A stretch of DNA of 57,530 nt, filler included, from Sphacelaria rigidula (Eukaryota), in the NCBI GenBank assembly GCA_964200075.2. It is 8 parts of 8 records of this genome, joined end to end, with 100 filler letters (N's around TTAATTAATTAA, not from the genome) between each part and the next. Parts side by side here need not be neighbours in the genome. Positions count along the whole stretch, not along the records: positions 14,410 to 21,513 come from CAXNAA020016465.1; positions 21,614 to 28,717 come from CAXNAA020016466.1; 6 more parts are not named here. One strand, written 5' to 3'. Below the pieces are notes generated by a model. That model was not told the DNA's origin and did not search any database. It was given only the letters and a program-made list of their open reading frames with translations. Shown in pieces: positions 7,206 through 46,100 of this stretch (positions are counted from its first letter, which is position 1; each line of letters begins with the position of its first letter). Position numbers and translations under genes: made by a program.

Positions 7206-7379
7206 ACTAAGCCAAGCAACAAAAGAGTACGCCCCCCACCCCCACCCCTCCCCAGGGGTCCAGCCTTGGTGTCATGATAGACGAACCCAAAAAAAACGAT
7301 ACTGAAACACGCTCTGAAAACAAAAAAAGAACAGAACAAAACAAAAAGGCGAACAGAACGACATAGCAGACTAAGTCAT

Positions 7380-8400: not shown

Positions 8401-8418
8401 TTATGCAAGCTTTCCCGT

Positions 8419-8645
8419 GGGGGGTGGGAGGGCGGGGTAAAATTTGTTCCTTGCCTTATACATTTGACCATTGGTGAAGCAGACGGAGCACCGTTCCTAC
8501 TCCGAAAAGAGGTACCTCAGACCTTTGGGCGCACATCAGGTTTGCCACATACATTACATGAGAGCCTTTCACTTGTGTTATCCCCTTGCCATTTCGCCAT
8601 CTGTAGCCACCGCCAATCTAGTATAGCAATCGTCTTCTTGCATTT
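8419..8645 (-). mobile_element. 3' fragment of LINE family A
   Basis: GGAGCACCGTTCCTACTCC and the terminus match 13600-13690 and 41760-41860. Ends in a C-rich tract on the minus strand. Confidence 0.75.
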
Positions 8646-9415: not shown

Positions 9416-11935
9416 GGGGGGGAACGTACCCATTTCTTGCTTGCCTCAGTCGTGTGACCATTCACCACGCATCCCTTTCGAGGCGGAGCACCGTTCTTAC
9501 TCCGAATAGAAACACCTCCAATATTCAGGCGCCCATTACGTTTCTTCCAAACATTACACAAAAAACGTTTATACAACTTATCCCCGTCCTGTTTCGCCGC
9601 CTGTGGCCAACATCTATCTCCTAGCATAACCATTGTTTCTTCGCTACTGTCTCATACATCTAACGATTTCATGCCACCTTCGTTCACGTCCCGCATTTCC
9701 CCCTCAAGCACGTCCCGTTTCTCCTTGAATGGTTCACATTTTCTCACCATACGACCTCTGATCTCTACTGTTTTGCCACAGAAGCAATTTTGCGCATCTA
9801 CTTTCTCCCCCTCTCGACGACTGGTGAATATCTTTCTTCCCTTTGGCAGGTCCAGGCCCCCACCCGAAATCGCAGTTTCAGATTTCGCCGCGTCCATTGA
9901 GCCATGCAGATATGCTTTCATCCCTATCCCCTCTCGTAACCCCCCGTATATCTTCAGGTGTTTTTCCTCGTCTACTTTGCGTCTGAGCGCTCCCTTTCCC
10001 CTTATTTCTACCATGTCTCTTACTTTTGTCTTGTACCCGGCGACTTCACCTAAGGACAATATTTCGTCTCGGTTTCCTCCTATCTCCTTCCATGCACCTC
10101 CTCCGCTTCTCTATCCCACCTTATTCCAGCCCGCCCTTTCATCATTTTCTTCCATACAACCCTGTCAACTATAGCCTGTAATCGCTTTCTCTGCATGTTC
10201 GCTAAGCTATACTGCTATCGCAATTTTCTCATCTCCCTGTCAGTTTTATGTGAGTACATTGTCAACTCTGATCCCAACGCTGTTTTACTCACCGTTTTCG
10301 AGCATCCAGGTATCTTCGCAGCTGCTGCTATCTGTACTGTTTCCAACTTCTTCGCCGGCTTCACATTCCCCTCCCATACTTCTCCTGCATATTCCAGCTT
10401 TGGTGCAGTCACGTTCATCGGGATACATTTCATAATCCTAGTGTCTAGGTGCAAGTCTCTGATGATCACGTCCATCCTGCCGATTAGTGCTTTACCCCTT
10501 TCTATTACTTTGTTCATGTATGCATCCCAAGAACAGTTTTGTGACATCTTTACGCCAAGGTATGTATACTGGTCTACGATCGGCGGTTCCTCTTCTCCCC
10601 ACTTCTATCTGAACTTTACCGGGTTTTCTTATCTTCGTTACTGACAAGTACCGCGCATTTGTTAACGTTCGTTGTCACTCTCCATTTCCTCGTGTATTCT
10701 AGCGCGTTGTCTACTTGTTTCTGTAATCCTTCTGTTGTTCCTGAAATCCCCACAAAATCGTCCGCGAACATCAACCCTGATACCAATTCTTTACCCATCT
10801 TGACTCCTTGCTTTGGTGCTTCTATCGTCAATATCAGGTCATTAATGAATACCTTGAACAAAGTGGGTGATAACGTACATCCTTGTGCAACTCCTTGTAA
10901 AATATAAAGACTATTTAGATATTTTCCCGTCTACCGTAGCATCATGACACTGCTGGCACATTCTGTCATCTTCTTCACCATCTCCACCTCTTTCGTCCGA
11001 TCCCAGTTCCCCACAACTTTTTTCACGGCCCATTTCTCCATACTGTGTCGTAAGTCTTTCGCACATCCAGAAAGAAACAGTACGTTGTCAGCCCGGTGTC
11101 TTTCCCACCCTGAATAATCTCACTTAGTGTGTACACATGGTCTACGCAAGTACGGCTTGGTGTTAGCCCTGCTTGCCCCTCGCTGATTTTGTGTTCCTTT
11201 TCAAGCATCTTTCCTCCTCTATCGTTCAGAACCTTACATAATGTTTTCCCTACCGTGCTCAGTAGCGTTATCCCTCTGTAATTTTCTGGGTCAGCCTTGT
11301 CTCCTTTTAAAAAAGGGTTGACGACCACTCCTTGACTCCACCTCTTGGGTGCGTACTCGTTTTCCAGATCCAGTTATACAGCCTGACCAGCATGGTAATC
11401 ATTCCCTCTCCTCCGTACGTCAGAAAATCATCCACCTTTTCGTCTGCCCCTGCTGTCTTTTTGTTCTTGAGTTTAGCTACGCACTCCTTCACTTCATTTA
11501 TGGTGAACTCTCTCTGCAATTCTTTCGAGCCTCTATCCTCCCGTTTTGACGTCTCCACATCTGTATCTGCCCGCGCGCTGATTTATTTTTCGAGTTCCAT
11601 GTCGAACTCTGCGGTCGTTGTTGGTGTCCCTAGTTTACGGTAGTGCTCGACTAGGACTTCTCAAGTTCTGGCCATTTTACTGTTCTGTGCCCGGAGTGTC
11701 GCTACTCCCGTGCCCATCTTTCCTGCCTGGTTTCTCGTTATCTCTTCTATCCCTACCCGCATTCGTTTCATCCCGCCATCAAAATCTTCGCTTGTTTCAT
11801 TCACTACATCTTCCCACATTCCCCTTTTTTTCTGCTGTACCATTTTCTTTACTTGCGTTCGAGCTTTAGTGTACTACTCCCATCTTACCGTAGTTTTACT
11901 CGATATGCATCTCGCGTGGGCCGCTCTCCTTACTC
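9416..11935 (-). mobile_element. LINE family A (possibly RTEX-like), 5'-truncated, degenerate RT
   Basis: YRGITLLSTVGK, QAG...RTCVDHVYTL, FFLDVRKTYDTVWR, QGVAQGCTLSPTLF, LMFADDFVG, PKLEYAGEVWEG, plus a C-terminal Cys-rich motif. Many stops and frameshifts. Confidence 0.93.
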
Positions 11936-13029
11936 TTCAAGCCGCGAGTGGGCGCTAGAATGTGCATGTCGTACGCGCTGGGTTCGAGACCACCCTCCCC
12001 CCCGCTATCCCGGACGATGAGACATATCTCCTCCCCAAACACCCTCACCCCCGCGGTGTTTTCTCATGTACTAGTCGTATGTGGACGAACTACATGATGA
12101 TGCTGAAGGCATGAGGGGTATCGTCTAAACATCTATACCTTTCCTATGTCCCCCTCAAATGCTCGGCAGCACGGCCGTTTGTCTACAACCGGACAAAGCG
12201 GGGTATACCACGCTCGAGGACGGCTGCTTTCCTATCCCCGTAAACCCCATGGGCTCAATCTCCACATGCGACATCACCGGCGCTGTGAAGATATTTTTTT
12301 TTCTTTGTAGTTGTACGTGCCATGCAGTGAAATGTCGACTCTCGATGAGATCTTCAGTGTACTTCAACAGCCAAAACAAGAGGCGGGCAATATTAGCCGT
12401 CAGTTGGTGTAAATTCAGATAAATTGGTGCGGACCTGTCTGCCCAAGCGCTGAAACTTCATTAGTTGGCGATGAAGAAGCGTTGCTTTACCCGATTCGGC
12501 CGCAAGGTTTTCCTATCCGTACTATTAATGACACGACAGCGCAGCGGATGAGATTGCCGGGTTGCCATTTTGATGGCCCGTCTTAAATATCCCGAACCGT
12601 TTACAGGGTTAGAGTCTCCTGAGAAGAGGCGCCAGAATCTTTTCGAAATAAAATGCCCTGAATCCGCTCAAACAGAGGCTCTGCTTGTAAGATATTTCGC
12701 CAGCTGCTGCAACTCGTAGCAGTGTGCACAGGTTTCACTACAGTCAAACTTTGACGTGGTGCGATGTAGAAATCAATGTAGGATGCGGTACAGAGAGGCA
12801 GCCTTCCCCCACAATCAAGGCTTACCGGTGTGGAGTCGGCTTCTTTCGTGGAAATAAGGAAAAAGAGGGTGTTTCAGACTGTCGATTAGGCCAAAGCTAT
12901 GACTCGAGGCGACCCAAACCGAAGTGACAAGCCAGGAAGCTCGTCTCGTCTTTTCTCAGGAAGACACATCTCACACGTATCGTCATCGGTCAACACCAAG
13001 AGGACTCAAAAACGAACAAATAGCAAGAC

Positions 13030-13694
13030 GAGATAATGTCCACAGGTGAAAGTGGGGGATACAGAACAGAAGTAAGAGGCATACTTGATGTAAATGAAGC
13101 GCCAAGACGGAATGCAGACGAGGAAGAGCACCTGAAGGTGTAGAAGGGGCTGGGACAGAGTAAAGTGATGAAAGACTATCTGCATGACCCAATGAACTTC
13201 GTGAAACAAATGAAACTGCAATTTCGAGTGGAGGACCTGGACCTGCCAGAGGGAAGAAAGAGATATATCAGTACGATAGTCGAGTGGAGAAGGATGTCGA
13301 TGCACAGAAGTGCTCCTGTGGCGAAGCAATAGATAGTAGGACTCATGAAGTGGCAGAATATGAGCTGTACAATGAGTGAAGGGACGAGCGAGAAAGAGAA
13401 GTGCGGCCATTGACGAAGGTGGCATGAAATCGTTTGATGCATTAGACAGTAGGCAGAAGACGGTGGCTATACCAGGGGATAAAAGGTGGCCACGGACGGC
13501 GAAACAGGACGGGATAAGGTGTATAAAAGGTTTGTGTGTAATGTATGGAAGAAGGGCAAAGATCGCCAGAATGTTGGGGGTGTCTCTATTGGGAGTAGGA
13601 ACGGTGCTCCATCTCGAAAGGGATACGTGGTCAATGGTCGAACGACTACGGCAAGCAACAAATGAGTACGCCCCCCCCGCCCGTCGCCCCCCCT
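13030..13694 (+). mobile_element. LINE family A, 3' fragment
   Basis: Colinear with 41230-41860. Ends GCAAGCAACAAATGAGTACG followed by C8. Confidence 0.88.
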
Positions 13695-13899
13695 ATGGGG
13701 TTGGCGTCAGTTGGTAATGGCGCTGTAGGACACGCCACGCACTGCGTAAGACAGGCAACCAGACCACCGTTTATCGCGCGCTTGCGTTTTTTTGCGGTAA
13801 CAATGATGGTGGTCGAGCTAGGTCATATTGTGCGGAGTGGGAGAAATTCGATTCCGCGCAGTGTGGGTGTTCATACTACATGGTGTTTAAACGGTAAGA

Positions 13900-14190
13900 C
13901 ACCCATGAGGCAGTGTGTAACCCGTGGCTGTCTCTGGAAGTGGCGACAACAGAAAGTGAAGCAACTCATTGTAGGCTGTCATTCAAATGCAAGATGATCA
14001 GTACGCTTCGGGCCGAACTATCTCATCAGGATGCAGCTCTCCCTCCATGCGACTCGCCGAATACATCACGGCGCTTCGCGCGTGGTGATTTAGTGCGAGC
14101 CTGGTCCGGCGAAAGCCCGGCGTGCTCCGTGCCGGCTTTGTAGGGATATCAGGGCAGTGGTCATACGACTGCGGCATGCAAGGTCATGAT
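13900..14190. repeat. Unclassified dispersed repeat (about 290 bp)
   Basis: Reverse-complement homolog at about 22665-22960, sharing ATCAGTACGCTTCGGGCCGAA and GCCTGGTCCGGCGAAA. Confidence 0.8.
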
Positions 14191-14213
14191 GAATAGCCCC
14201 CCCCCCACACACA

Positions 14214-14309
14214 GATGCTAGAAAAGGAAGACAAAATCAGCGAGGCACAAGCACGATTTGGACCATACCATAGTTGCGTAGACCATGTGGACACACTAAG
14301 TAAGATTAT
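14214..14309 (+). mobile_element. LINE family A, 5'-truncated copy cut by the scaffold end
   Basis: MLEKEDKISEAQARFGPYHSCVDHVDTLSKI matches the RT segment at 11120-11210 and 40085-40180. Confidence 0.8.
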
Positions 14310-14409
14310 NNNNNNNNNNNNNNNNNNNNNNNNNNNNNNNNNNNNNNNNNNNNTTAATTAATTAANNNNNNNNNNNNNNNNNNNNNNNNNNNNNNNNNNN
14401 NNNNNNNNN

Positions 14410-16579: not shown

Positions 16580-19500
16580 GCGTAGCTAGAGATCTGTCTC
16601 GCAGCTGTAGACTTTCGGACGCCGTGACATGAGGAATGGGGAAGAACAGGATCATACGCTACCCCCCCCAGCAACTACGCCGTCTCTGGCTTTCGATGGT
16701 GCCGGGGGGATCGGATCGGTTTAGTCGACAGTACCGTAGCTCCTGGCTCCCTTGCTCCCCAACCAAGTCGAATTATTGAAGGAAAAAAATAGTAACTCGC
16801 ACATTGTTTCGCCGTCGTCCATGCTGACGAAGGCTACGAGTAGCTCCTCCTCCAAGAGCTCCAGGGGCCGCCTCCTGGGGGTCAAAACTACCGCCTCCTC
16901 CATCCTGTAAGACTCATCCGTAATGCCTCTCCCCCATTCGAACTCCATTCGAACTCCAGGCCGCGGCGAAAAAGTTTAACGTACCGTATTCCTCGGGGGA
17001 TGCAATGGATGTTATCACCCACCCGGAGGTGGACGCCGTGTGGATCTGCTCCCCTTCCCAGTACCACGCAGACCAGGTGCGATTTGCCTGCGAAGAAGGC
17101 TCGTTATGGTACTTTCCTGCAGTTCGTATACTGCCCTCGATGTGTACGAGTAGTTGTGGTGACACAACGAGGAGCGTCGGTGATGCAAATGACCCACACG
17201 AGTGCCAGTTTCAGTGAAGCCGATGTCGCTTTCTCTTTTTTTCCTCGCCACGCTCATTCGAAGGAGAAGAACAAGACGGACTCGAGGATATCGTACAAAT
17301 TTAACGTAGTTATGGCTACTAGGAACCTCACGGTAAAAAAGGGCCAAGATCCAAAACACGGCATGCATTTATTGGGAATTCACTAGGCGAAACTGGCCTC
17401 GAAAGACAAAGCCCCTGACTCGGATGAACGAGTGTAGGGCAAACGCCTCTCTGAAAGCTAGCGCAATGGCATGACCGTAAAGAGTTGTTGAAAATTTTAG
17501 CTCGACGGCACCAACCGCTCTAGGGCGGATTTGGGCAGATCGGACCGAGCCTGTCTGGATTCCGTTGCACCGGGAAGATGACGGCGGCTTGTTCAGTAGG
17601 GACAAAGCTCCCACCCTTGTGGGGCCTCACAGCGGGTTCATGTCGACTTCCGCGCATCAAGCATCAACCGCTGAGTGTTGAAATTGGCTTCGTTGAAAAG
17701 CTGCTCTGGTGTCCCTTGAGTGCACCTCTAAAAATCTGGTTATTGCAAATCCTTTCCTGATTCCCAGACTAATCATTTGAAGGTGACCATCTAAACAAGT
17801 CTGATCAAATCTGCCCCCCTGTCATCCATTTCTCGTTACATTCTGTAACTTTTGTACCGCCCCCCCTCGCGCTACCTGTGCGCACTCAGATCAAAGCCTG
17901 CGCAGCGAACGGGAAGCACGTTTTCTGCGAGAAGCCCATTGCAACGGACGTGCCTGAGACGATTGAGGCAATCAACGCCTGCAAGACGGCCGGCGTAAAG
18001 CTTATGACTGCCCTGCAGAGACGGTTCGACCCTAACTTCGCACGCGTGAAAGTGGCCATCGCCGACGGAGAAGTCGGGGACCTTATCCAGGTTCGACTTT
18101 GCCCTTTTTTTCTTCGTTACTGAGTCATTTCCTGCTCCTTTTTCTCCCGTTTCCATCTCAACTGTTGATGCCGTATTGTGAATATTTTCGTATCAGTTCC
18201 ATCTTGCCTTCCTCCCCCCGCTCCCCTCGTCCCTACGCTCGTCTGGAATAGACAGCATAAGCTGGCGGTGACGCAACCGTGGCAGATTTCGTGTTCTTGT
18301 AAGTGACGAAGTGCCAGGGGTTGTGTCAACTGTTCCCAGCGGCGGCGGTGGGAGGGGTGTGTGCCCAATTCAGCCTACCGTAAGGAGTTGTCGCGTTTGT
18401 TGAGGCGCACCCGAAAACTAGAGTAAACTAAGCGCTGTTGCCGTGACTGATTGCTTTTTCCAAATGCTATAGGTGAAGCTCACGTCACGCGATCCTTCTC
18501 CACCACCAGTGGAGTATGTCCGAGGGGGTGGCGGTATCTTCAAAGACATGGCGGTTCACGACCTCGACATGTCGCGGTTCCTGATGGGCAGCGAGCCTAA
18601 GGCAAGGAAGATACGTTTGTATTCGACAGGAACGATGCTGGACCGATGACTCGGAACATTTCTCGTGTGATGTCATGCACATAAGGAATAGCGAGAGTCA
18701 AACGTGTTTCCCGGGTCTCTTGCCACATCCGTCGTGCGGGGTCCTCATACCCCTACCCGATGGCGCGACATAAGACGCTTTTGTTGCCGCGGAGGAACCC
18801 CCCCCCCCCCCCCCCCCCCCCACCGCCCCCCCGTGCGCGCCCGGGGGGGGGGTTTTTTTTGTGGTGGTGGGGGGGGGGGGGNNNNNNNNNNCTACAGTCT
18901 TGGTGGGGGGGCCACAAACCCCTACCCGAGGGCGCCACATACCGCGGTTTTGTTGCCCCGGGGGAACCCCCCCCCCCCCCCGTAGTAATCATGCCGTCCT
19001 CGTGCAGCCGTGGCGGATATTTTTTGTTGGTGGTGGGAATGGTTGCGGTTCCCGTTGGTCGAGCTGTTTTTCCAACAAAGTTGTGTTGGTGAGGCCGATG
19101 TGTCCTTCCACCCCACTTCAACGACTTTGTATCCTATCCCCCATTCTGAATCATCCCTGCGCCATGTCACGTCGTGCAACAGCGCATCTTGGCAACGGGG
19201 TCGTGCCACATCGACCACGCCATCGAGAGCCTAGAGGGACCCGAGGCCTACGACACGGCCACCATCATGGTGGAGTACGAGAACGGTCGCGTGGCATGCA
19301 TTGATGTTTGCCGCCAGGCACCTTACGGGTGAGGAGAGGGGCTTCGTTGATGTGGCGCAGCTGTAGCTTGTTCGAGTGTTGCGTGAGTCTGGCCTATGTT
19401 CTGTCAAGTGGGATGATGTCAGCACGTCGCCCACTTCGGTTGTTGCACATATTGCCCTCGAACACCGACCTTGCCGATGGATGCCAACATACCTATATTC

Positions 19501-21446: not shown

Positions 21447-22977
21447 CCGTGGTTTGCGGCAAAGCACCTGGGCTAGCGCGGCGGGAGAGGGAACGCCCAC
21501 AAAAGAGAGGGAGNNNNNNNNNNNNNNNNNNNNNNNNNNNNNNNNNNNNNNNNNNNNTTAATTAATTAANNNNNNNNNNNNNNNNNNNNNNNNNNNNNNN
21601 NNNNNNNNNNNNNAAAAAACGGGTCACCTGGTTGCCTAGCGTACGCAGTGAGTGGCATGTTTTACAGCGTCGTTGCCAACCGACGCCAACCGCATAGGGG
21701 GTCCATCCGATCGACTTCCGATTTTGTGCACAAGGGTGTAACATCCAGGTGCCGGCATGCCCGTCGAACAGAGCCGGAGAAGATCATGCGCACTCAATAG
21801 TATGAACTTCAATGGTCACGTAACCAGTAAAGAGTGGATCCGAGGCACACAAAGTGGATCCAAATGTATTCCAGAGAGCCCTGAGTGGAAAAGCCTCTCC
21901 TGCAACTCAATAGTCGTTTCACGAATAGATTTGTGCGGGGTACCGACATGAAGGCGATGATGTATTTTTACTTTTTTTTCTGCAGGTGCTACCCGCGGAA
22001 TATTGTACGCTAAAAAACGCGGACTGTATGTGCCTTTCCTACAGTATTCCCGCTGAATTAGCAGGTGATTGCTCGACATGGCGATGCTACGGTACCACTA
22101 CCGAGCGTGGATTTTGTTTTTCGTTGTAAGCCACCTTGTGGTGTGACTCCAGCATCTCGGCCACGGCTTGTGCAGTGTGACACTGCTGGCGGAAGCGCAG
22201 CATCATCGTTTTGCTATTTTGCAAAATGTAGAACGCATCCTGTGGACTGTGGCAGCGTTTTCACGGAAGAGCCGAGTGGGGGAAGGAGGGGGGATCGATT
22301 CAATATGTATGTACCACCAGGACAGCACATGAACAGCGACATACACACACAGACAGACAAAGCATTTGACAGCGCATAACGTCTGCCACAACCCCCGATT
22401 CCACTCCACGAAGAAAAAGACCGAACACGTCCAGCATCCGCTACGAGCTTCACCAGATTCGCGTATACGCTAGCGTGTCGTGGAAGGCCCGTACGCAAAG
22501 TGACCGTGCCACTGTCGCAATTCATAACAGTAGATCAGGAGTTACTCGACGAGGCGCCTCAGACTCTTCTCGTGGGCGATGCGCGGGCGGGGAGTGCTGA
22601 TCCTCAGCTGTATCTCCAAAGCTACACCACTTGCAACAAGTGGAACAGGGGGGTTCAGGGGTACACTCATGATCTTGCGTGCTGTAGTCATAAAACCATA
22701 GACCTCGCGTCCCGACAAAGCCGAGACGGAGCACGCCGAGTTTTCGCCGGACCAGGCCCGCGATCTATTACCGAGCGCGAAGGGCCGTGATGCACTCGGC
22801 GAGTCGCGTGAAGGGTGCGCTGCACCTGGTGAAGATTGTTCGGCCCGAAGCGTACTGATTACCTTGCATACTGATGACAGCCTCGAATGGGTCACTTCAT
22901 TTCTGCTATCACCGCTTCCAGAGACTGTCACGGCTTATACACGGCTGCATGGGTGTCTCACCGAGTGAAACAGGGGG

Positions 22978-23095
22978 GCGTACCCATTTGTTGCTTGCCT
23001 TAGTCGTTTGACCATCGACCACGCATCCCTTTCGAGACGGAGCACCGTTCCTACTCCTAGTAGAGACACCTCCAACATCCTGGCGCTCATTACGT
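22978..23095 (-). mobile_element. 118-bp 5'-truncated LINE family A insertion with 16-bp TSD
   Basis: TSD CGAGTGAAACAGGGGG at 22962-22977 and 23096-23111. The insert matches the family A 3' terminus. Confidence 0.93.
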
Positions 23096-23163
23096 CGAGT
23101 GAAACAGGGGGTGGGTGAACAGAAGAATGTGAATAAATGTTGCGGTCGAGGTGTTCTGCTTAC

Positions 23164-23282
23164 CTGAGGATGTTCCCGTGTATATTGCGGTAGGAGTGTA
23201 TGTTGTCGTCAATTTCTTTCGTTGCAGAGGCCAAAGCGCCTCCAAGTGTAACGTTGTGTCCATCGTAGAATTTCGTCAAGCT
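23164..23282 (-). CDS. gamma-lyase exon carrying the PLP-binding Lys
   Basis: cag|SLTKFYDGHNVTLGGALASATKEIDDNIHSYRNIHGNIL(S/R)|gtaagc. Confidence 0.92.
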
Positions 23283-25778
23283 CTGCAGTCGCGGGACGGG
23301 TGGCAACGGCCAAATCATACGACAGCACGCGGCAGCGCGGGAGCGCAGCATGAAGTACAGCAGCGGACAAGCGGCGACCAGCGTACGAAATGGCTGTACT
23401 GTAGAGAGATCTAACGCATCCGAAGGCAAAGACCAGGACTCACGACAAAAATACAACGCGCGCGAATGACAAGTGACATCAAAAGCAGAACATCGGATGC
23501 ACAGCGTACAGTACAGTGGGTACCCTCACTCTCCAACAAGGCATCTTGGCTGCCGTGTATGTACTTTAAAGCTGTACACCTCCCACAAGAAAAAGAGGAG
23601 TTGTTGCAACAAGCATACCACACAGCGCATGGCATGCTTCAGGACGTCCGTCCGATAGTCCATGCATTCTCAAGCAGCTCGACGGTGTGCTTTCGACACA
23701 TTCGCGCTGAAATCCCACATAAGATATGCCACTGGATAGATGCGACATGCGCGGTGCGGGGAACGTTGGACGCGGGTGACACAAGGGTGGTGCCAAGGTC
23801 CCCCAAGCGGCTTGCTACAGTAGAGTGGTGGCTGTGATTGTAGTGGTCTGAAAGGAGTTTGGACTGCTCAATGCGGAGATCAAGCCAGATGCCATGCACA
23901 TGCGATCAGTATCCAGCTCCCAAGAGACCGCCCGCACCGCACATCAAAGCGGCAGGCCAATGGTATGAGCCGAGTGCGAGTTCATTCCCCCTCGTACAAA
24001 TAGCAAATAAGCAAACATTCCCATCAAACGCACGCGCCGCATCAGTGCTGCGTTTGCACGCCTCAAATTGTGTAGCTCCTCAACTCACTGCTCGACTATC
24101 GCTGCACATCCGGTTGCTCAGAGCGGAGGCGGTGGAAGCTATGCTCTAGGGGCATGCTATGAGTACGCTTGGCCTGAGAGGAATTTTGACGGCCTGCGTA
24201 TTTGCCCGCCACATGTTTCTACTGCGAACAGTTGGCTAGCGCAGTAACGATCGCAGCAGACACAAGGCTCTGTCATGCAGAGGGGAGCTCAAGATACCCA
24301 AATGCGAGTGTATCGAAACGTACAGTACATCGGCAAGGGTCAACTGAACGCATTCCTCGGAGAGCATCAAGTTCGGGCGATTCGCCGCACAACGGCTCCA
24401 GGAGGCTGGCCCTTCTTCGAAATCCTGGGGGAATACCTCGAGGAGAACTTGCATGCCCTACTCGTAGGTGGGTTTAGGAGAGGACGAACCAAAATAATGT
24501 GGTTCGTCTGCGGTGCCGAGGTCAAAACCTCGCAAGCTCGAGTCACTGCCGCTAAGAGCGTGGGCAAATGACATCCGAGGATCATCGAGGGGGGGGGGGG
24601 GGGGGAGTGGGGGGAGGTGTGGCGACGCCATAATAAGACCTCTGTCAATCCGATCTACCGCGCAAAGAGACCGTTGTGTCGAGAGACGCCACTAACGCCG
24701 TCACAGCAGCTCTCACAACAACGCCAGCAACAACTCGCGAGGAATCCTAATGTAAACGGTTGAGCTAGTAGCCCATCATGTCCCTAACTAGAGATGGGTG
24801 GGGGACGACGACGACGACGACAACTGATACCACCATGTTACCAGATCGGTTGTCGAATCATTCCCCTGGCGTGTGTCCCTTGTGCAGCTCTTTGCCCTGC
24901 TTGTGTTCCACCTCGCTTCTGTACTTTTCCTTATTATGTGGTTACCTTCGTTTTTTCCCTTTCCTGTTTTCCATCTTTGTCCAAACCTTGAAAGAGTGTG
25001 TTTGTCGCGCTCCTACGGAACAGCAGGCGAGAGCTCCTGCTCGAATACTTCGGCCCCTAGACAGGTAAAGTCGCAGCCTGCCTCTACGGCAGTGCCTATT
25101 ATGAGACCTTCTTACCTAAACCCTTGACGGGGACCTGCCTGTCTGTTGAGATTCTCATCAAATACTTCCGTCTGCTCTTAGCTTTTTTATATATATATAT
25201 ATTGAGTCCCTTGTCGTTTTTCTCGCTCTCACATTTTTTTTAATTATTCCCCTCCTGTCTAGTTTTCCTTCAGCGAGCATTTCCGGTTATTACGCTTGAG
25301 TACGCCTATCTTGCGACGACGGCTGAATTCCAAGCATAACACATAATGTGAGGAAACCAATCAACTGATTAGTCAATCGATCAACCATTCATTCACTCGC
25401 AAGGCCATCGCTTGCGGCAATACGTACCATCGATCAAGATTTGATTCAATGGGTTGTCACACATTAACTGATTCCCTATAACAGTCATAATCCATCCCTG
25501 GTCATCATCCAGAAGATAGACATACCCATGGTGGAACAAAACGGAAACGCTCGCTAAAAAAAGAGAAAGGTGGGGGGGAAAAAACGAACATATACTGTAG
25601 AGAAGAAGCGAACAGGGCAAATTGAAAGACAAGGAACAAAGACGAACGAAACACAAGAATGAATCGCGCAGAAGAAGGGAAGAGGAAAAGATCGGAGAAG
25701 AACTAGCAAAAAAAAAGGTAATGATAATAGTACTTATGATAATAGTACTGATAATAATAGCAATACTAACAACAACAA

Positions 25779-35866: not shown

Positions 35867-36045
35867 CCCCCCCGGGGGGCGGGGCGTGCTCCCTTCCTCC
35901 CCCCTCCCCCCCCCCCCCCCCNNNNNNNNNNNNNNNNNNNNNNNNNNNNNNNNNNNNNNNNNNNNTTAATTAATTAANNNNNNNNNNNNNNNNNNNNNNN
36001 NNNNNNNNNNNNNNNNNNNNNAGATAAATGTTGGATTGGGTTACC

Positions 36046-38520: not shown

Positions 38521-38799
38521 ACAAACAACAACACCCCAAGCCCAAAAACAAAAGAAAACAAANNNNNNNNNNATTTGGTGTTGGTGTTTCCCCCCGGAAA
38601 AAAAAAAAAAAAACCCCAAAACCCCGGTTTTTTAGGGCCCACGGGAGGAGCCCCCCCCCCCCCCCCCCTCTCCACTACGATAGAACACAAAGCCAGAGAC
38701 GCAATGGACACGGACTAGAAAATGCGACTACGAGAGAGACCGCTACATTCTGTACTATATAGGGCTAGAGCATGGATATGGTAAAGAAATGGAAGTACG

Positions 38800-41700
38800 T
38801 ATATGCGCGGAGGACGTGAGAGTTACAGGTCCTTGCTGAATGTGGACAGGAAGTCAAGAGACGAGAGGTGAAATAAATAGGCGGGGTGGGAGGTTGTGCA
38901 AACGGAGGGTAGATGAACTAGAGATGGATGAAAAACAGCAGGGTTTCCAAGAAGAGATGACAAAAAATGCAGTGAAATTTTCCGAGCTGTTGGAACGCGT
39001 AGGTACCGTTGATACCGAAATGAAAAAGGATCGGGCAGGAGCGAAGATTTTAGAGGGGTGGGAGCAGTTGGCCAAGAACATAGCGAGTAAAGTCATAGAG
39101 AAGAAACTGATCGTATGCAACAGAGCAGCAAAATGGTGGAATGAGGAAGTAAGGAGAGAGGCCCACGCCAGATGTATATCGAGTAAAACTACGGTAGGAT
39201 GGGAAGAGTATACTAAAGCTCGAAACAAAGTCAAGAATATGGTACAGCAGAAGAAGAAAGGAGTATGGGTAGATGTAGTATTTAAAATAAATGAAGATTC
39301 CGATGGCGGGATGAAACAAATGTGGGTGAGGATTAAAGGGATAACGGGAAACCAGGCAGGAAAGATAGACAAAGGGATAGTCACACGACGGGCACAACAC
39401 GGTAAAATGGTCAGTAGTTCGTAGGGGAAGAGAAAAGTGCTAGTCGAGCACTGCAGTAAAATAGAACACCAAAAACTAACGCAAAGTTCGACACGGAAGT
39501 CAACAGAGAAATCAACATGTGGGCAGAGGCAAATGTAGAGGCGTCAAAATGGGAGGATAGTGGCTCCGAAAAATTGCAGAGATAATGTACGAGAGATGAA
39601 GTAAAGGAGTTTGTAGCTAAACTCAAGAAGAGAAAGGCAGCAGGGGCAGACTGAATAGCGAATGAATTTCTAAAACACGGGGGAGAGAGAATGATTACCG
39701 TGATGGTTATGCTGTTTATCTGGATCTGGGAAAACGAGTACACACCCAAGAGGTGGAGAGAAGGAGTCGTGGTCAACCTTTTCAAGAAAGGAGACAAGGC
39801 TGACCCAGGGAATTATAGAGGGATAACGCTAGTGAGCACGGTAGGGAAAACATTCTGCAAGATTCTGAACGATAGAGCATAAACGATTATAGAGGTAATG
39901 AATACCATGATGGTAATGCTGTATAACTGGGAAAACGAGTGCACACCCAAGAGATGGAGAGAAGGAGCAGCGATCAACCATTTAAAAAAATGACAGAAGG
40001 CTGAACCAGGAAATTATAGAGGGACAACGCTACTGAGCATGGTAGGGAAATCATTCTGCAAGATTCTTAGCGATGAAGTAGGAACGATACTACGAACGAA
40101 AGAAAAAAACAGCGAGGGCCAAGAAGGCTTTAGACCAAACCGTAGTTGGGTAGAGCATGTAAGCACACTAGGTAAGATTATTCAAGGTAGGAAATACACC
40201 GGGCTGACAACGTACTGTTTCTTTTTGGACAATCAAGAAGCTCATGATACAGTATGGAGAATCGGGTTCTGGAAAAAGTTGTGGGAAACTGGGATCAGAG
40301 GAAAGATCTGGAGAATGGTAAAGGTGATGGGGACAGAATGCGCCAAAAGTGCCATGAAGTTAGACGGGGGAATATCGAAGTATTTTGAAATTTTACAAGG
40401 AGTTGCACAAGGATGTACGCTATCACCCACTCTATTCGAGGTACTACTCATTAATAGCCTGATCAAAGCAATAGAAGCGGCGAAGCAAGGAGCCAAGGTG
40501 GGTGAAGATATAGTCCTTAGGATTGATGCTCACGGATGGATTTGTTGGGATTTCAGGAACACCGTAAGGATTGCAGAAACAAGTAGAGAAGGCGATAGGA
40601 AATTGAGAGTGACAGCGAACGTTAACAAATGCGTGGTACTCGTCTGTGGCAAGATAAGAAAAATCCAGTAGAGTTTTGACGAAAGTGGGGAGAAGAGGAA
40701 CTGCCGATCGTAGACCAGTATGCATACCTTGGCGTAGAGATCTCAAAAACCTGTTCTTGGGATGCACACAAGAACGAAGTAATAGAAAAGGGTAGGGCAA
40801 ATATATGCGGGATAGACGTGATCCTCGGAGACTCGCACCTAGATACTCGGATATAGACATTTATCCTGATTAACGTGATTGTACCATAGCTGGAATATGC
40901 AGGAGAAGTACGGGAGGGGAACACGACGTTTTTGAAGCTGCTGGAAACAGTACAGATGGCAGCAGCTAAGAAAATACTTGGATGCTCGAAAACGACGAGT
41001 AATACAGCATTGAGAGCAGAGTTAGGAATGTACTCACTTGAAAGAAACAGAGACATAAGAAGATTGAGATGGTAATATAGCGTAAAGAACATGCAGAAAA
41101 AGAGATTACCAGCTGTGGTTGATGAGGCTGTCTGGAAGAAGGTAACGAAAGGGCAGAGACTGAAATAAGTTAAGAGAGAGAAGTCGAGGAAGCATGGAAA
41201 GAGATAGGAGGAAACGAAGACGAAATACTGTCCATAGGTGAAGATGCCGGGTACAAGACAAAAGTAAGAAAAACAAGCGCTCAGACTCAAAGTAGACGAG
41301 GAAGAGTACCTGAAGATATACGAGGGGTTGGGAGAGGGGATAGGGATGAAAACATATCTGCATGGCCCAATGGACGCGGCGAAAAGTTTGAAACTGCGAT
41401 TTCGGGTGGGAGACCTGGATCTGCCAGAAAAAAGGAAGAGATATATCAGTAGTCGAGAGGAGGAGGAAGTGGACGCATAGAAATGCCCCTGTGCATAAGA
41501 ATAGAGAGCAGAAGTCATATAGCGGCAGAATATGGATTATACACGGGGGAACAGAACGTGCTAGAGGAGGAAATAAGGGACGTGAAGGAAGGTGGCATGA
41601 AGTCGTTTGATGCATTGGAGAGTAGGGGGGAAACGACGGCCATACTAGGAGATAGATGGTGGTCACAGATGGCGAAACAGGATGGGCATTAGACATGCAA

Positions 41701-41860
41701 AAGGCTTTTGTGTCATGTATGGTAAAAACTTGATGAGCACGTAAATGTTGGAGGTGTCTCTATTAGCAGTAGGAACGGTGCTCCATCTCGAAAGGGATAC
41801 GTGGTCGATGGTCAAGCAACAAAGGCAAGCAACAAATGAGTACGCCCCCCCCCCCCCCCG
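38800..41860 (+). mobile_element. LINE family A, about 3 kb, degenerate
   Basis: KWWNEEV, YRGITLVSTVGK, QEGFRPNRS, QGVAQGCTLSPTLF, LEYAGEV, CPCA..ESRSHIAAE. Ends AAATGAGTACG followed by C14. Confidence 0.93.
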
Positions 41861-43059
41861 CCCTCTCCCCTCCCCGCCCCCCACCTACTGGGCGGCGGTG
41901 TGATATACTTAAATTTTATTTTTCCATCTCCCAGCATTCCGTAAATTGTCGAGGCGGGAGATTATATCACTCTAAATTTCACTGAGGTGCGTGGCTTGAA
42001 TTTCGTTTTGTATGCGGTCGCCGCCGCGCCTCGGTGGTCTATATTGAAATGGTACGACTGAAAATAGGTAGGGTGGAAAATTGGGGATTCCGAATCACGA
42101 CGGATGTGGGTCCAGTTTTTCTTTCTCTCTCTGATTCTCTGATTTTCTCCGGTGACAACGTGAGGGTGTGATTGGCGAAGATAATTCAATGGTTTGAAGA
42201 GAGTCAATGCGGTGCAGGAGTGCTGATCCAGTCCGTAGCATCAATGTGCAAGGCGTGTACGGGGGGAAAGGTGGGTTGATCCCTTCGACACTACAGACTT
42301 GTCTTGTCTCGAAAAAGTGGAATGGTTGAAAAATTAACGGAAATGAAAAAATGATATATTTGTGTATATTTATTTGCATGGCGAATTTGTTTCATAGCAG
42401 AATATAGGCCTGGAACCCCTTTCTTTTGTTTTTTCTGATGCACATTCCGTCTCCATGGGGATTAAGGTTATCTTGTGGTGAGAAATTCACGAGGAGGCTG
42501 AGAAGACCTAGCTGATCAGGGTTGACTGACTGTCAGGGCGATGGAGTGACATGTATCAAGGGGTACGAATGCTGCATCAAATCAGACACACGGATGTGTA
42601 CTATGAAAAATTACCGTTTTTAACCCTGGTGGCGAGAAGAAATTGATGTTAAAAATATCATGCTCATTGCAATCCCCAAGATAAGGTTTTGACCTTTCTA
42701 CTGTAGCCGACACGAGCGTGTCTTCATCGGCGAGCCCATACTGTAGCATGACAGCTTCGCAGCAGTAATGATCGTTGGGCGTCTAGAGATTTTTATGGGA
42801 TGTGTGTGTACGCATATTCGTGTTTCCTCATTACACATCTTTGCATATCCTCTTGACGAAACAGTGCATCGCAACCTTCACATTCGTAACTGCCGTTCGT
42901 TGTCGCTAGGGCATGAGATGTGGCGATTCCAACAGCAGCAACACGGACCTGGGCAGACGAATGGCGCGCGCGCGAGTCGCGGGACAACTGCCACCTGTGG
43001 ACTGGAAGCCAGTAGAACGACGAGAAAGGTGCTGACATAGTACCCCCCCCTCCCCCGCC

Positions 43060-43124: not shown

Positions 43125-46100
43125 NNNNNNNNNNNNNNNNNNNNNNNNNNNNNNNNNNNNNNNNNNNNTTAATTAATTAANNNNNNNNNNNNNNNNNNNN
43201 NNNNNNNNNNNNNNNNNNNNNNNNCGGCGTTGTAGGGATGCGAGGTCAATGGTCTTATGACTATGGCATGCATGATCATGAGTACACCCCATGTGACTTG
43301 TCACTCGAGGACAAAAGGTGGCCTGTTGAGCACACAATCTCCTTGCTGTAGCATGTCTGTGTCGAATTGACAGCAGCTATTCTGCAAATCATAACGGAGA
43401 GGCACGCAATTTCGATACTTGTGTTTTCTGCTCTTGTCCCCGTCGAATCAGCAGCTGATTTTTCAAAGCATATGGAGGGGAAATCATGCGGTCTCTCTTG
43501 ATTCGTTTGTTTCTTCAGTGCTTGTTTCTGCGTTAATGTCACCCGGGTCATATGTTCACCTTGTGCTTAATTTGAAAAATGACGACAATTACGTATTTTG
43601 CGCCAACACCTCCCACCGGACACTTGGCTTGCATTCCGTTGGACATCAAAGCGCGTTCTGTTTCAGCTTGCGTTTGAAGTATTTTTGGCTTTTTGCATTG
43701 TGTTCGGCATGGTATTTGGCGTTGCGATGTACCCTGTACAAAGCTCTCACTCTCTTTCTCGTCTCGATGGACTCTTCGACCGTTCAAGGCACCGTCATCC
43801 ATCTCGACCTGTCTTCGTTCACGGAGTCGGCATCATGTTCAGTTGAGAATCCCCTCGCTTCATGCTTACGGTGAAATCGGTCAGCGCGCCATCGCTCTCC
43901 ATTAAACACAATCGTCCTCTCGGGGGAGGGTTGGCACACGTGGTGATCTCATCTTTTTAAGAAGAACTTGATGACATTTTGTGCTTTCGGTGTTGTTCTG
44001 ATGACTATTTCAGGAATCGGAATTGGAGGCAAAGGCACGAGAATCAGAGATACGTCCGGACGTGGAACGAGGAAACAGTGGCAGTACAGTCGGAGAGGAA
44101 TTGAAGGAAGAGTTTTGCGCGCGGTCATCAGCTCCGAGCGCCGAGGGTAGTGACTGTGATACTGACCGATGATCACGGCGCTGTACATACACTTGTATAA
44201 CTTATGTATCTGGTATTGTGCTGACTGTTTTTTTTTGCCTTCGGTATGATGTTTTGTCCTTTTCGTTCCCCTGATCATTTTACGTTGAGCTGTTCATTCC
44301 GACCAGTTGTATTGATTCAATGGTTGTTCTCTTACTTGGGTGTATTGATGCTTCTGCTTGAGCTTTGGTCTCTCCCTTGGTGCGGTTGTTCGGCGGCATT
44401 TGAGTGAGTGTATCGGCCCAATTGACGGCTTGTCAGAAGCAAGGGTAGAATAATCGTGATCGTTTTGTCATTTTCTTTGTCAATCATTTGTGTATTTACG
44501 GTCATACTTTCGTTTCATGGATGAACGATTTGATGACTTTCATCAATCAGCGTATGCTGAATGTTTTGTATGCATCTCCGATCGCGCCGTTTTGATGAGA
44601 AGATCGTAAATGTAACATGGGAAGTTGGTCACTGCAGTGTGCAGTGTTGCTGTGGGTCATACCACAGCTGGGAAAACGGAGCCATGGTTGTACCTGAACG
44701 TACATGCCCCGACGCAGATGTTGCTTCCGCGTACTGGCCGTCTCATCGTGTTTGGCGTGCTGTTGGCTTCCTTATATTCTCTTCCCGTGGGACTTACCTT
44801 GCCCGCGCTGCTTCCTGTTCTCGCCAGCGTTTCTTTTATACGGTGCATTTTGCGCGACAAACCCTCCGTGTGTCTGTGTGTCTGGTGAACAGTTGTATGG
44901 TGCGCCGTGTTTATGATGATGAAAGGTTTACTTGGTCTCCCTTCAGCGCGTTTCTCATACACATGTTTTTGTTGTTTGCAACGTGTATTTCTGCGACGCT
45001 GGGGTTCGCCCGGTCTTTTTTGTGAGTGTTTTATGCTGGGCACACTCCTGCCGAAGGGGGATGGATGTATCCGTATCTAGAATATAGCTTGATTTTGCCG
45101 TCTCGGTGCACAGGTTGATGCTGTGGAGGAAAGTGGGATGTTTATAGGTTGCGCTTGCGGTCAGCGAACTGTTTGGTTGAGGTACTTAGTTCGTGTTGAA
45201 AGAACGATGACGATCAGCTCAGGTGTACAGCATTTCAACCTTGTTCTCGCGCTTTGGCAGTGCGACGGCGCACAGGTCTGCGAAGTCACTATGGAAGGGA
45301 GTTGTGGGCAGGCCTTTAGTGAGAGTTATAGGGGTAACCAACTTGGCAAAATCTACTTGACATGATGTTTTCTTCTGGGTGCACGCAAAACTTACGTGGG
45401 TTCAAGACTGCATCATACCGTGGGGATACAGTACAGTGGTCGTTCCAGCATTGTACGGCGGGTCACAAGCACCGCCGGTTACCGCAGTATGCTGGAACCC
45501 CGCATAACACTGGTGGAATTCAATCAGTTGGTGTCAGCATAGCGAATCGGACGTGTGACAAGTGAGGCGCCTGACCGCACTGTGCTAGGATCCAACCTTC
45601 CACTCGTATGGTACGACACACGAGCATGTTTTCCAATTTCCTTTCAGCCAGCATTAAACGGTTGGAACACGTTACCTCACCTCTCTTTCATACGTGATGA
45701 GTCATCGTTACATGTTTCTCCCATCCCATCCATGAAGCATGTATCACAAGTACATGTTCCCCACCTTCCATTTATTCGAGATGGATTAAGTTGACAAATT
45801 CCTCACTTTTCATTTACGCAGCATGAGTCGGTCATAAGTACATGTTCTCCACGTTCTTTTCATATGACGTGAATAATGAGACGATGTTGTTTGCCACCTA
45901 TTATCTCATGGGGCACGACTCTTCGGTGGCTTGAACTTTTTGCAGGTGGGGTGGCAAACAAGAGCGTACAGGTCGCAAACCGCTTGAGGGCCAAATCCGG
46001 AATAAACCAAATGATTTTCTGATACTTTTTACGTAGCCAGGGTTGCATATCGGACCGAGAAAAAAGTTTGATAGATATTCTTAGAATATCGAAGCACAAC

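What the first reader, a model, noticed from the sequence alone, without database searches (positions are those of the whole stretch)
22962..23111. LINE family with an oligo(C) 3' end that appears to insert at C/G runs
Seen: all six visible 3' ends of LINE family A run into C tracts instead of poly(A) or a tandem repeat (7206-7255 +, 8419 -, 9416 -, 13650-13694 +, 22978 -, 41825-41882 +; consensus GCAAGCAACAAATGAGTACG-Cn). The cleanest copy has a 16-bp TSD that, in element orientation, begins with the C run (CCCCCTGTTTCACTCG). Established: target-primed reverse transcription usually pairs an RNA poly(A) tail with a T-rich nick. Inference: this family primes on a nicked G-run using an oligo(C) RNA end, a C/G analogue of L1 A/T priming. 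It could also seed the abundant poly(C)/poly(G) tracts seen here. I cannot confirm whether this is already described.
Basis: partly seen in the sequence, partly recalled or inferred. Interest (0 to 1): 0.8.

Follow-up and report, generated by a model that had tools for sequence, protein, structure and literature searches.

The report
LINE and partner with poly-C tails
A very abundant jumping gene (a LINE) and a short non-coding partner in this marine, alga-associated genome end in runs of C instead of the usual A tail and land next to C runs, which looks like a new variant of a known copy-and-paste mechanism.

Summary
Every family-A 3' end I could see runs from ...AACAAATGAGTACG into a C-rich tract and none into poly(A): 6 of 6 copies in the window and 4 of 4 in other public assemblies. 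In four public runs, 1230, 1062, 673 and 120 contigs diverge exactly at this terminus, and their consensus continues as a C run of 12-23 nt.

The element is an APE-endonuclease plus RT, single-ORF LINE. Its stop codon lies 5 nt before the C run, so it has no real 3' UTR. An intact 1360-codon copy exists elsewhere.

A ~500-bp non-coding element shares the LINE's last ~60 nt and is also C-tailed.

C runs also sit just 5' of the elements at 7 of 9 junctions. The 16-bp TSD starts with C5. The same target was used twice, first by the partner and then by the LINE. Elements form same-orientation arrays separated only by C runs.

Best reading (0.58): target-primed reverse transcription in which a nicked G run pairs with an oligo(C) RNA end. 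The RNA end itself was not observed, and only one target sequence is unambiguous. An unrelated LINE family in the same window has (CAAT)n tails.

No description of such an element was found in nine literature searches.

The parts
22979..23095 (-). 5'-truncated family-A LINE copy (117 nt; encodes the C-terminal ...GAPSRKGCVVDGQTTKASNK peptide; stop mutated TGA>TGG)
   Evidence: (92% to 41745-41850); other genomic copies continue past 23078/23095 (loose ends)
22978..22978 (-). one extra C at the 3' junction, not part of the duplication
23096..23111 (-). 5' copy of the target-site duplication CCCCCTGTTTCACTCG
22962..22977 (-). 3' copy of the TSD of the LINE fragment; also the 5' TSD of the older partner-element fragment
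   Evidence: contigs of other copies of the partner element stop at 22961/22962 (table 8)
22661..22961 (-). 5'-truncated copy of the ~500-bp non-coding partner (SINE-like) element
   Evidence: 79% over 299 nt to 13892-14189
22653..22660 (-). short impure tail of the partner fragment (CCCTGAAC)
22637..22652 (-). third, older copy of the same target (CCCCCTGTTCCACTTG; 2 mismatches)
38674..41844 (+). longest family-A LINE copy in the window (5'-truncated inside the endonuclease region, decayed; RT at 39994-40671)
   Evidence: (P0088 aa 373-1360)
38651..38673 (+). C18-TCTCC directly 5' of that copy; candidate 5' TSD (sequence next to an assembly gap, low quality)
41845..41885 (+). C-rich tail/target tract; its first 24 nt (C15GCCCTCTCC) match the candidate 5' TSD with 1 mismatch and 1 extra C
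9425..11934 (-). family-A LINE copy (78-80% to the longest copy); followed by TTC7 at 9424-9416
13025..13670 (+). family-A LINE 3' part
13671..13693 (+). C-rich tail of that copy; also the spacer to the next element
13694..14196 (+). full-length copy of the non-coding partner element; last ~60 nt alignable to the LINE 3' end
14197..14206 (+). C10 tail of the partner element
14213..14309 (+). 5'-truncated family-A LINE fragment (RT region) starting 6 nt after the C10; runs off the contig
   Evidence: (P0088 aa 770-800)
7206..7231 (+). family-A 3' end at a contig start, followed by a 22-nt C-rich tail (7232-7253)
8440..8633 (-). diverged family-A-like 3' end, followed by a C-rich tract at 8439-8417
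21614..21696 (-). head of the partner element ('Z'), directly preceded by C5 (21697-21701) and then by single-copy DNA
   Evidence: depth and loose ends
43043..43059 (+). C8TC5GCC tract directly 5' of a truncated family-A-like fragment (43061-43124)
43225..43285 (+). 3' end of another partner-element copy, followed by ACCCC

Best explanation
Family A is an autonomous non-LTR retrotransposon with one ORF (APE-type endonuclease, then RT, then a C-terminal domain). The ORF ends 5 nt before the element's terminus. It mobilises itself and a ~500-bp non-coding partner that shares its last ~60 nt.

Integration is by target-primed reverse transcription at C/G runs. The endonuclease nicks the G-rich strand at the 3' edge of a G run; the clean case reads 5'-...ACAGGGGG^TGGG-3'. 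The freed oligo(G) 3' end pairs with an oligo(C) stretch at the 3' end of the RNA, immediately after ...UGAGUACG, and reverse transcription starts there. The second nick falls about 16 bp away, so the TSD begins with the C run.

Each insertion leaves a C run at its 3' end, and that run is itself a target. New copies therefore pile up head-to-tail in one orientation, and C/G homopolymers multiply across the genome.

Shown: the C tract at the 3' ends, C runs at the 5' flanks and at the TSD start, re-use of one site, the arrays, the shared 3' end, and intact coding capacity.
Inferred: oligo(C) on the RNA (probably transcribed from the parent's C run by read-through), G:C pairing as the priming step, and the endonuclease's specificity.
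For: 3' ends:
- LINE: 6 of 6 window copies and 4 of 4 copies from other assemblies (L001-L003, L004/L006) run into C tracts. Partner element: 3 of 3. Overall, 9 of 13 have C>=6 within 2 nt, against 0.004 by chance.
- Genome scale: contigs that leave the reference exactly at the terminus (place 22973) number 1230 (X1), 1062 (X3), 673 (X4) and 120 (X5). Their consensus is a G run of 12-23 nt on + (C in element orientation). There is no T run, which is what a poly(A) tail would look like here.

Target:
- The exact 16-bp TSD starts with C5.
- A third, 2-mismatch copy of the same 16-mer follows the older partner fragment, so two insertions used the same nicks.
- C>=5 lies within 17 nt upstream of 7 of 9 5' junctions, against 0.020 by chance.
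- The partner head is directly preceded by a ~24-nt C run in the consensus of 436 (X1) and 376 (X4) contigs.
- Joints with C run plus 3-18 other letters between two elements (table 5c).

Arrays:
- 13025-14309 is LINE, C-rich 23 nt, partner, C10, LINE, all on +.
- 'Goes back 72-73' joints occur in 29 (X1), 23 (X3), 14 (X4) and 3 (X5) contigs.

Element:
- RVT_1 in the window copy.
- P0088 (62% identical) has Exo_endo_phos plus RVT_1.
- L006 carries an uninterrupted 1360-codon ORF, ending ...TGAGTACG-C13.
- The stop codon is 5 nt before the C run.
- The LINE and partner 3' ends align.

Specificity control: LINE family B in the same window ends in (CAAT)n / AATC-type repeats.
Against: - Only one non-homopolymer TSD target is unambiguous, although it was used twice. 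The second candidate (38651-38673 / 41845-41868) lies beside an assembly gap in low-quality sequence.
- 2 of 9 5' junctions (11934, 13025) show no C run and no TSD.
- The RNA 3' end was not seen. No holder is on record as RNA.
- The one-C excess at the 3' junction could be later homopolymer slippage.
- The C-only spacers in the array (7-10 nt) are shorter than the 16-bp TSD.
- The intact copy L006 has no C run in the 1 kb upstream of its ORF, so its 5' junction was not seen.
- A more distant relative (family C) lacks a C run in 1 of 3 copies.
- The shared 3' hairpin has 0 covarying pairs.
- The endonuclease was not assayed.
Confidence: 0.58

Rival explanations
1. Pure target specificity. The LINE is a (C)n/(G)n-specific element in the manner of microsatellite-specific LINEs. 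Both nicks fall in or next to a pre-existing C run, and the C tract after the element is essentially target DNA (TSD). No oligo(C) pairing with the RNA is needed.
For: - In the clean copy, 5 of the 6 C at the 3' junction are accounted for by the TSD.
- C runs flank both sides of elements, and the spacers in arrays are pure C.
- Microsatellite-specific APE LINEs are known for ACAY, AC, TC, TTC and TAA repeats (PMC3812793, passages seen).
Against: - A target of only C5 sufficed, and the TSD ran 11 nt beyond it, so the second nick need not lie in a run.
- 3' tracts (consensus 12-23 nt or more; up to 41 nt in the window) are generally longer than the 5' runs seen at short-run targets.
- One extra C is present at the 3' junction in both TSD-bearing copies.
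- This reading does not explain why the run always starts right after ...GTACG unless the RNA end is defined there.
Confidence: 0.22
2. The tail is made at initiation. The RT adds G residues to the nicked DNA end without a template, or slips repeatedly on one or a few C of the RNA (telomerase-like). The C tract is then a by-product of initiation and not a copy of an RNA tail. The preference for C runs as targets is a separate property.
For: - Tail lengths vary from 4 to over 40 nt and are impure.
- Template slippage on a 3' repeat is documented for the eel LINE UnaL2 (PMC1636434, passages seen).
- The element has no 3' UTR that could hold another initiation signal.
Against: - The clean copy gained only one C beyond its TSD.
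- This reading does not explain the C runs on the 5' side or the site re-use without also invoking target preference.
- No direct data bear on it.
Confidence: 0.12
3. The C run is internal. The true element is LINE, then Cn, then a further ~95-nt segment ('Z', ending in a T run). Copies that stop at the C run are 3'-truncated or internally primed.
For: Z or a Z-like sequence follows the C run of 2 of 10 LINE copies, including the intact copy L006. Joints 21691->22973/22974 link Z to the LINE tail in 7 (X1), 6 (X3), 5 (X4) and 1 (X5) contigs.
Against: - 8 of 10 LINE ends are followed by unrelated sequence. One of these has a TSD that starts at the C run.
- Z at 21696 is preceded by C5 and then by single-copy DNA, not by a LINE.
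- The Z-like segment after L006 matches window Z much less well (local alignment score 51 over ~80 columns with gaps) than the adjacent LINE 3' end does (86% identity).
- Z heads the separate ~500-bp element.
Confidence: 0.05
4. Artefact. The C/G runs are sequencing or assembly errors, for example homopolymer artefacts at read ends.
For: Sequence beside the 10-N gaps (18.8 kb, 38.5-38.7 kb) does look like low-quality read tails after long homopolymers.
Against: - The same junction is seen in this assembly, in three other metagenome assemblies, in a binned contig, and in Logan contigs of runs from three studies.
- The runs are bounded by unique flanks and by a perfect TSD.
Confidence: 0.01

Closest known systems
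Mammalian L1 with Alu/SVA (poly(A) tail pairing with a T-rich nick at 5'-TTTT/AA-3')
   Same: APE-type endonuclease plus RT. A homopolymer at the 3' end. The TSD begins with the same base as the tail. Frequent 5' truncation. Non-autonomous partners are mobilised. Old tails serve as new targets. The RT is the best PDB sequence match (human ORF2p, E 6.6e-21). The L1 consensus site is quoted in PMC3812793 (passage).
   Different: The homopolymer is C, not A, so it cannot come from polyadenylation. There is no 3' UTR and no poly(A) signal before the tail. There is a single ORF: no second ORF of >=150 codons in the 1 kb upstream in L006. The partner shares the LINE's 3' sequence, which Alu does not. 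Membership in the L1 clade was not established.
Microsatellite-specific APE-type LINEs: Waldo (ACAY)n, Mino (AC)n, Kibi (TC)n, Koshi (TTC)n, Dong (TAA)n
   Same: Insertion into a simple repeat that then flanks the element on both sides. Orientation is fixed relative to the repeat. The endonuclease is believed to give the specificity (PMC3812793, passages).
   Different: The target is a mononucleotide C/G run, which is not in that list. A run as short as C5 sufficed, and the TSD extended 11 nt into unique DNA. Abundance is very high, whereas my recollection (not checked here) is that those families are low in copy number. Clade relationship could not be tested.
Eel UnaL2 / UnaSINE1 and other LINE-SINE pairs with a shared 3' end and a short-repeat tail
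   Same: LINE and short partner share the 3' terminal sequence. The tail is a short repeat rather than poly(A). In UnaL2, reverse transcription starts in the 3' repeat with template slippage (PMC1636434, passages). That would explain variable C-tract length.
   Different: The repeat unit is a single nucleotide. The shared region is coding sequence, not a UTR. The predicted hairpin has no covariation support. UnaL2 is not known to me to target its own repeat in the genome (recalled, not checked).
Zepp LINE clusters of Chlorella, where new copies insert into the poly(A) tails of older copies (recalled from memory; no paper read here)
   Same: Head-to-tail, same-orientation nests of LINE copies, formed by insertion into the tails of earlier copies.
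   Different: Zepp tails are poly(A), as I recall. No comparison was made here.

Membership tests
APE-type non-LTR retrotransposon (LINE) | Reverse transcriptase domain of the non-LTR type | tested here: met
   RVT_1 E 4.5e-13 in window ORF 39994-40671. RVT_1 E 1e-30 in relative P0088. Best PDB matches are L1 ORF2p and R2 RTs.
APE-type non-LTR retrotransposon (LINE) | Apurinic/apyrimidinic-like endonuclease N-terminal to the RT | tested here: met
   Exo_endo_phos (E 3.4e-12) and Exo_endo_phos_2 at aa 170-414 of P0088. L006 encodes the whole 1360-aa protein in one open frame at 88% identity. The window copies are all truncated 3' of most of this domain.
APE-type non-LTR retrotransposon (LINE) | Target-site duplications and variable 5' truncation | tested here: met
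   Exact 16-bp TSD. Copies of 117 nt to >3.1 kb all share the 3' end.
L1 clade | Poly(A) tail after a 3' UTR with a polyadenylation signal | tested here: not met
   0 of 10 LINE ends have poly(A). The stop codon lies 5 nt before a C run.
L1 clade | RT/EN phylogenetic placement within L1 (against Repbase/Dfam or RTclass1 references) | not testable with these tools
   No reference set of LINE clades is available.
Simple-repeat-specific LINEs (Waldo/Mino/Kibi/Koshi/Dong type) | The target repeat flanks the element on both sides, in a fixed orientation | tested here: met
   C runs lie 5' of 7 of 9 junctions and 3' of all ends. Arrays are all in one orientation.
Simple-repeat-specific LINEs (Waldo/Mino/Kibi/Koshi/Dong type) | Insertions essentially confined to the repeat | tested here: inconclusive
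   The one clean target is only C5 inside unique DNA. Two 5' junctions lack any run. A genome-wide tabulation was not possible because no genome is held.
SINE (partner of a LINE) | 3' end shared with the partner LINE | tested here: met
   The last ~60 nt align across 7 LINE and 3 partner copies. blastn gives 75% over 64 nt, E 5.7e-4.
SINE (partner of a LINE) | Head derived from a pol III gene (tRNA, 7SL, 5S) | tested here: not met
   No ARAGORN hit. No Rfam hit even at E<=10. To my eye (no tool test) there is a short D-arm-like word, and a T7 run lies ~95 nt in. I therefore call it 'SINE-like / non-autonomous'.
Stringent-type LINE (3' stem-loop recognised by its RT) | Conserved 3' stem-loop supported by covariation | tested here: inconclusive
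   RNAalifold predicts a small hairpin. 0 of 11 pairs show compensatory change.

The most novel reading that the evidence does not exclude
This would be the first LINE/partner system whose target-primed reverse transcription runs on G:C instead of T:A homopolymer pairing. An oligo(C) RNA end is primed by a nicked G run. There is no 3' UTR and no polyadenylation. The system feeds itself: every insertion creates a new C-run target, which builds same-orientation arrays and populates a large genome with very many poly(C)/poly(G) tracts. Those tracts could form G-quadruplexes or i-motifs and are a likely source of replication and assembly breaks.
Probability: 0.45. Interest if true: 0.75.

Novelty: new variant of a known kind. 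Interest (0 to 1): 0.62.

Why it matters
LINE tails are usually poly(A) or a short microsatellite. Pairing between the tail and the nicked target is central to how L1 chooses its sites. A naturally occurring C/G version, with an intact ORF available, would be an independent test of that pairing model. It asks whether specificity lies in the endonuclease, in primer-template annealing, or in both. It could also offer an RT/endonuclease pair with a different, predictable target preference.

It also explains a genome feature. Long C/G homopolymers are rare in most eukaryotes but common here, and they coincide with contig breaks. In practice, repeat annotation pipelines that look for poly(A) or microsatellite tails would place the ends of these elements wrongly.

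Tried and rejected
- Whole genome: none is held for this window, so the proposed genome-wide table of tails, TSDs and empty sites could not be made. I used laid contigs instead.
- Empty site: among the 15 joints shown of 581, none skips the 117-nt insertion, so no empty allele was seen. This is not evidence of absence.
- RNA: no RNA holder is listed. X5 is only guessed to be RNA.
- TSD search (k=8) for the copies at 13025 and 9425-11934: nothing convincing.
- tRNA/Rfam for the partner head: nothing.
- 3' hairpin: no covariation.
- L001-L003 run off the held stretch on the 5' side, so they give no TSD.
- The bin holding L004 has only that one copy. Its contig shows no C run or Z in the 1 kb upstream of the ORF.
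- Z as the LINE's own 5' end: rejected.
- Clade placement: the atlas gave only generic 'jockey-like' RT clusters.
- Earlier findings of this scan: none.
- Literature: nine searches found no C-tailed or C-run-targeting LINE or SINE. The poly-C mentions in PMC5381506 concern internal 3' UTR tracts of poly(A)-tailed L1s. The poly-G mention in PMC3956500 is unrelated. The 'polyC' search mostly matched other words. Repbase/Dfam reports are not in the library, so prior description there cannot be excluded.
Full report
WHAT THE WINDOW IS. The window is not one locus. N44-TTAATTAATTAA-N44 spacers recur every 7203-7204 bases. They divide the window into eight pieces of 7103-7105 bases, which I take to be eight separate small contigs joined for the scan. 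Four 10-N gaps lie inside pieces. No whole genome is held. The family-A copies therefore come from several independent places in a fragmented, repeat-rich assembly. GC content is 45-55% throughout.

The sixth listed end (8440, - strand) is a more diverged relative.
- In element orientation, every copy runs from ...AACAAATGAGTACG into a C-rich tract of 6 to about 41 nt. None is followed by poly(A).
- A C>=6 run begins within 0-2 nt of a random position with probability 0.004.
- The cleanest copy (22979-23095, - strand, 117 nt) is flanked by an exact 16-bp duplication, CCCCCTGTTTCACTCG.

WHAT THE ELEMENT IS.
- The longest window copy (38674-41844) has an RVT_1 domain.
- Database relatives of 56-63% identity are 1328-1360 aa proteins with an APE-type endonuclease (Exo_endo_phos, Exo_endo_phos_2) followed by RVT_1.
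- The C-terminus of P0088 (...GAPSRKGCVVNGQMTKASNK-stop) aligns with the very last bases of family A. All four window copies long enough to translate encode this peptide.
- The conserved '3' consensus' is therefore the end of the ORF. The TGA stop lies 5 nt before the C run, and the element has essentially no 3' UTR.
- All window copies are 5'-truncated and decayed.
- A contig in a public metagenome bin (L004/L006) carries a copy with one uninterrupted 1360-codon frame, 88% identical to P0088. It ends ...ATGAGTACG followed by C13. So intact members exist.
- No second ORF of 150 codons or more lies in the 1 kb upstream of it.
- The best PDB matches are RTs of human L1 ORF2p (E 6.6e-21) and of R2 (8.8e-20). 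This does not place the clade.

A NON-CODING PARTNER.
- The sequence that starts right after the C tail at 13693 is a ~503-bp element (13694-14196) that ends in C10.
- Its last ~60 nt align with the LINE's last 60 nt (blastn 75% over 64 nt, E 5.7e-4). The rest has no LINE protein similarity.
- Further copies are 22961->22661 (- strand, 5'-truncated), 43225-43285 (3' end, followed by ACCCC) and 21696->21614 (head only).
- I call it SINE-like and not a SINE, because neither ARAGORN nor Rfam supports a pol III-gene origin for the head.
- The small hairpin predicted in the shared region has no covariation.

THE TARGET.
- The left flank of the 117-nt LINE fragment is the truncated partner element. 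In element orientation the order is: unique DNA, CCCCCTGTTTCACTCG, LINE(117), C, CCCCCTGTTTCACTCG, partner(301), CCCTGAAC, CCCCCTGTTCCACTTG, unique DNA.
- That gives three copies of one 16-mer. The two around the younger LINE fragment are identical. The one after the older partner fragment has two mismatches.
- The simplest reading is two successive insertions that used the same pair of nicks. This argues for sequence-directed cleavage at the edge of the C run (top strand A|CCCCC, bottom strand GGGGG^T).
- Other 5' junctions also sit next to C runs:
 - the partner's full copy: C7 directly upstream;
 - its head at 21696: C5, then single-copy DNA;
 - a LINE fragment at 43061: C8TC5GCC;
 - a LINE fragment at 14213: C10 plus 6 nt;
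 - the longest LINE: C18-TCTCC, matched at the 3' side by C15GCCCTCTCC. This last sequence lies beside an assembly gap and is of doubtful quality.
- Two junctions (11934, 13025) show nothing. That makes 7 of 9, against 0.020 per site by chance.
- The stretch 13025-14309 is an array of LINE, C-rich 23 nt, partner, C10, LINE, all in one orientation.

GENOME SCALE.
- Runs from three studies hold the contig. Their labels are a coded organism and an 'algae metagenome'.
- I laid contigs of four runs on 21614-24500 at 80% likeness. Single-copy flanks have depth of about 70-75 in X1. The bin with the LINE's last 100 nt sums to 15.7 million. The tool warns that this is not a copy number, but the family is clearly very abundant.
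- Contigs that leave the reference exactly at the LINE terminus number 1230 (X1), 1062 (X3), 673 (X4) and 120 (X5). Their consensus is a G run of 12-23 nt on the + strand, which is a C run in element orientation. There is no T run, which is what poly(A) would look like here.
- The same behaviour appears for the partner's head (place 21691): 436 contigs in X1 and 376 in X4, with consensus C24 then TTTGAG then the head.
- It also appears at a frequent 5' truncation point of the partner (place 22757): 366, 345 and 47 contigs.
- 'Goes back 72-73' joints occur in 29, 23, 14 and 3 contigs. They show head-to-tail repeats of the LINE's last 72 nt separated by the C run.
- Where letters between two joined elements are given, they are a C run followed by 3-18 other letters. 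That is what a TSD beginning with C would leave.
- Four copies from other assemblies end the same way: C8, C10, CCTC7TCCTCCC and C13.

CONTROLS AND COUNTER-EXAMPLES.
- Another LINE family in the window (family B; 7.3-8.4, 48.3 and 51.8 kb) ends in (CAAT)n / AATC-type repeats. So the C tract is not a general property of this genome's LINEs or of its assembly.
- A more distant 3' end (...CATGAGGTTTTCCCTA) abuts C9 and C14 in two copies, but unique DNA in a third (46252, - strand).
- Homopolymers of 12 nt or more number 10 C and 5 G, against 2 A and 0 T. Several sit at contig ends or gaps, where the adjoining sequence looks like poor read tails.

HOW IT MOST LIKELY WORKS. See Best explanation. 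The shown and inferred steps are separated there. The main rival is that the C tract is only target DNA, as with microsatellite-specific LINEs. The second rival is that the tract is made at initiation, by slippage or untemplated addition. The data favour a role for the RNA end only weakly: one extra C at both TSD-bearing junctions, and 3' tracts that are longer than short-run targets. A further rival is that the C run is internal and followed by the 'Z' segment. Its basis is that Z follows 2 of 10 LINE ends, including the intact copy. It is unlikely for two reasons: Z also occurs behind C5 in single-copy DNA, and the Z-like segment after L006 matches window Z far less well than the adjacent LINE does.

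COMPARISON WITH WHAT IS KNOWN.
- It works like L1/Alu with the A:T pair replaced by C:G.
- It works like the microsatellite-specific APE LINEs (ACAY, AC, TC, TTC, TAA; PMC3812793, passages read), with a mononucleotide C/G target.
- It works like LINE/SINE pairs that share a 3' end and start reverse transcription in a short 3' repeat (UnaL2; PMC1636434, passages read).
- It fails the L1 hallmark of a poly(A) tail. Its clade could not be determined with the tools at hand.
- Nine literature searches found no C-tailed or C-run-targeting LINE or SINE. Repbase/Dfam are outside the library, so a prior database entry cannot be excluded.

VERDICT. The finding is a real, strongly supported feature. I rate it as a new variant of a known kind, with interest 0.62.

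Noticed in passing
window 7106-7205, 14310-14409, 21514-21613, 28718-28817, 35922-36021, 43125-43224, 50328-50427: N44-TTAATTAATTAA-N44 spacers every ~7204 bases. The window is eight length-sorted ~7.1-kb contigs joined with six-frame-stop linkers, so distances and neighbourhoods across the spacers mean nothing.
   Followed up: yes
window 18798-18981 and 38485-38673: Sequence beside the 10-N gaps looks like low-quality read tails after long homopolymers: stretched runs of each base, and a near-duplicate of the preceding 60 nt. The real loci are probably single long C tracts that broke the assembly.
   Followed up: partly
window ~7259-8420 (-), 48340-48484 (-), 51621-51900 (+): A second LINE family (B) whose 3' ends carry (CAAT)n / AATC-type microsatellite tails. 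I used it as a control for tail type.
   Followed up: partly
window 29262-29647, 30726-30875, 46250-46563 (-): A third repeat ending ...CATGAGGTTTTCCCTA. In two copies it is followed by a C run and then the same next repeat (AGCTGGGTTGGG...). In one copy it is followed by unique DNA. A similar AGCTTGGTGG head follows C12 at 36293 (-).
   Followed up: partly
window 13694-13800 and 21614-21696 (-): To my eye (no tool test), the head ('Z') of the partner element contains a 10-nt word like a tRNA D-arm (TCAGTTGGTA). A T7 run lies ~95 nt in. The head's summed depth (2.0 million in X1) exceeds that of the element's middle (0.24 million), so the head may also exist as a separate repeat.
   Followed up: partly
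window 5587-6072 (-): An ORF fragment that I read by eye as the C-terminal part of a Ty1/copia-type polyprotein (...SKHIDVGYHFIRELV...). It had no Pfam hit at E<=0.01.
   Followed up: no
window 39684-39887 vs 39891-40088: A 204-nt tandem duplication (81% identity) inside the longest LINE copy, at the start of the RT region.
   Followed up: no
L004/L006 (contig C43 of G001): A contig filed in a bin titled 'uncultured bacterium' is almost entirely an intact eukaryotic LINE. It is therefore very likely mis-binned eukaryotic DNA. Its first ~125 nt (element orientation) hold two ~62-nt tandem units, each ending in a T run.
   Followed up: partly
window 22099-23359: Run X5 (guessed to be RNA) covers only this part of the single-copy flanks: depth 12-83 here, about 6 before 22099 and 0 beyond 23360. 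The locus around the insertion may be transcribed.
   Followed up: no
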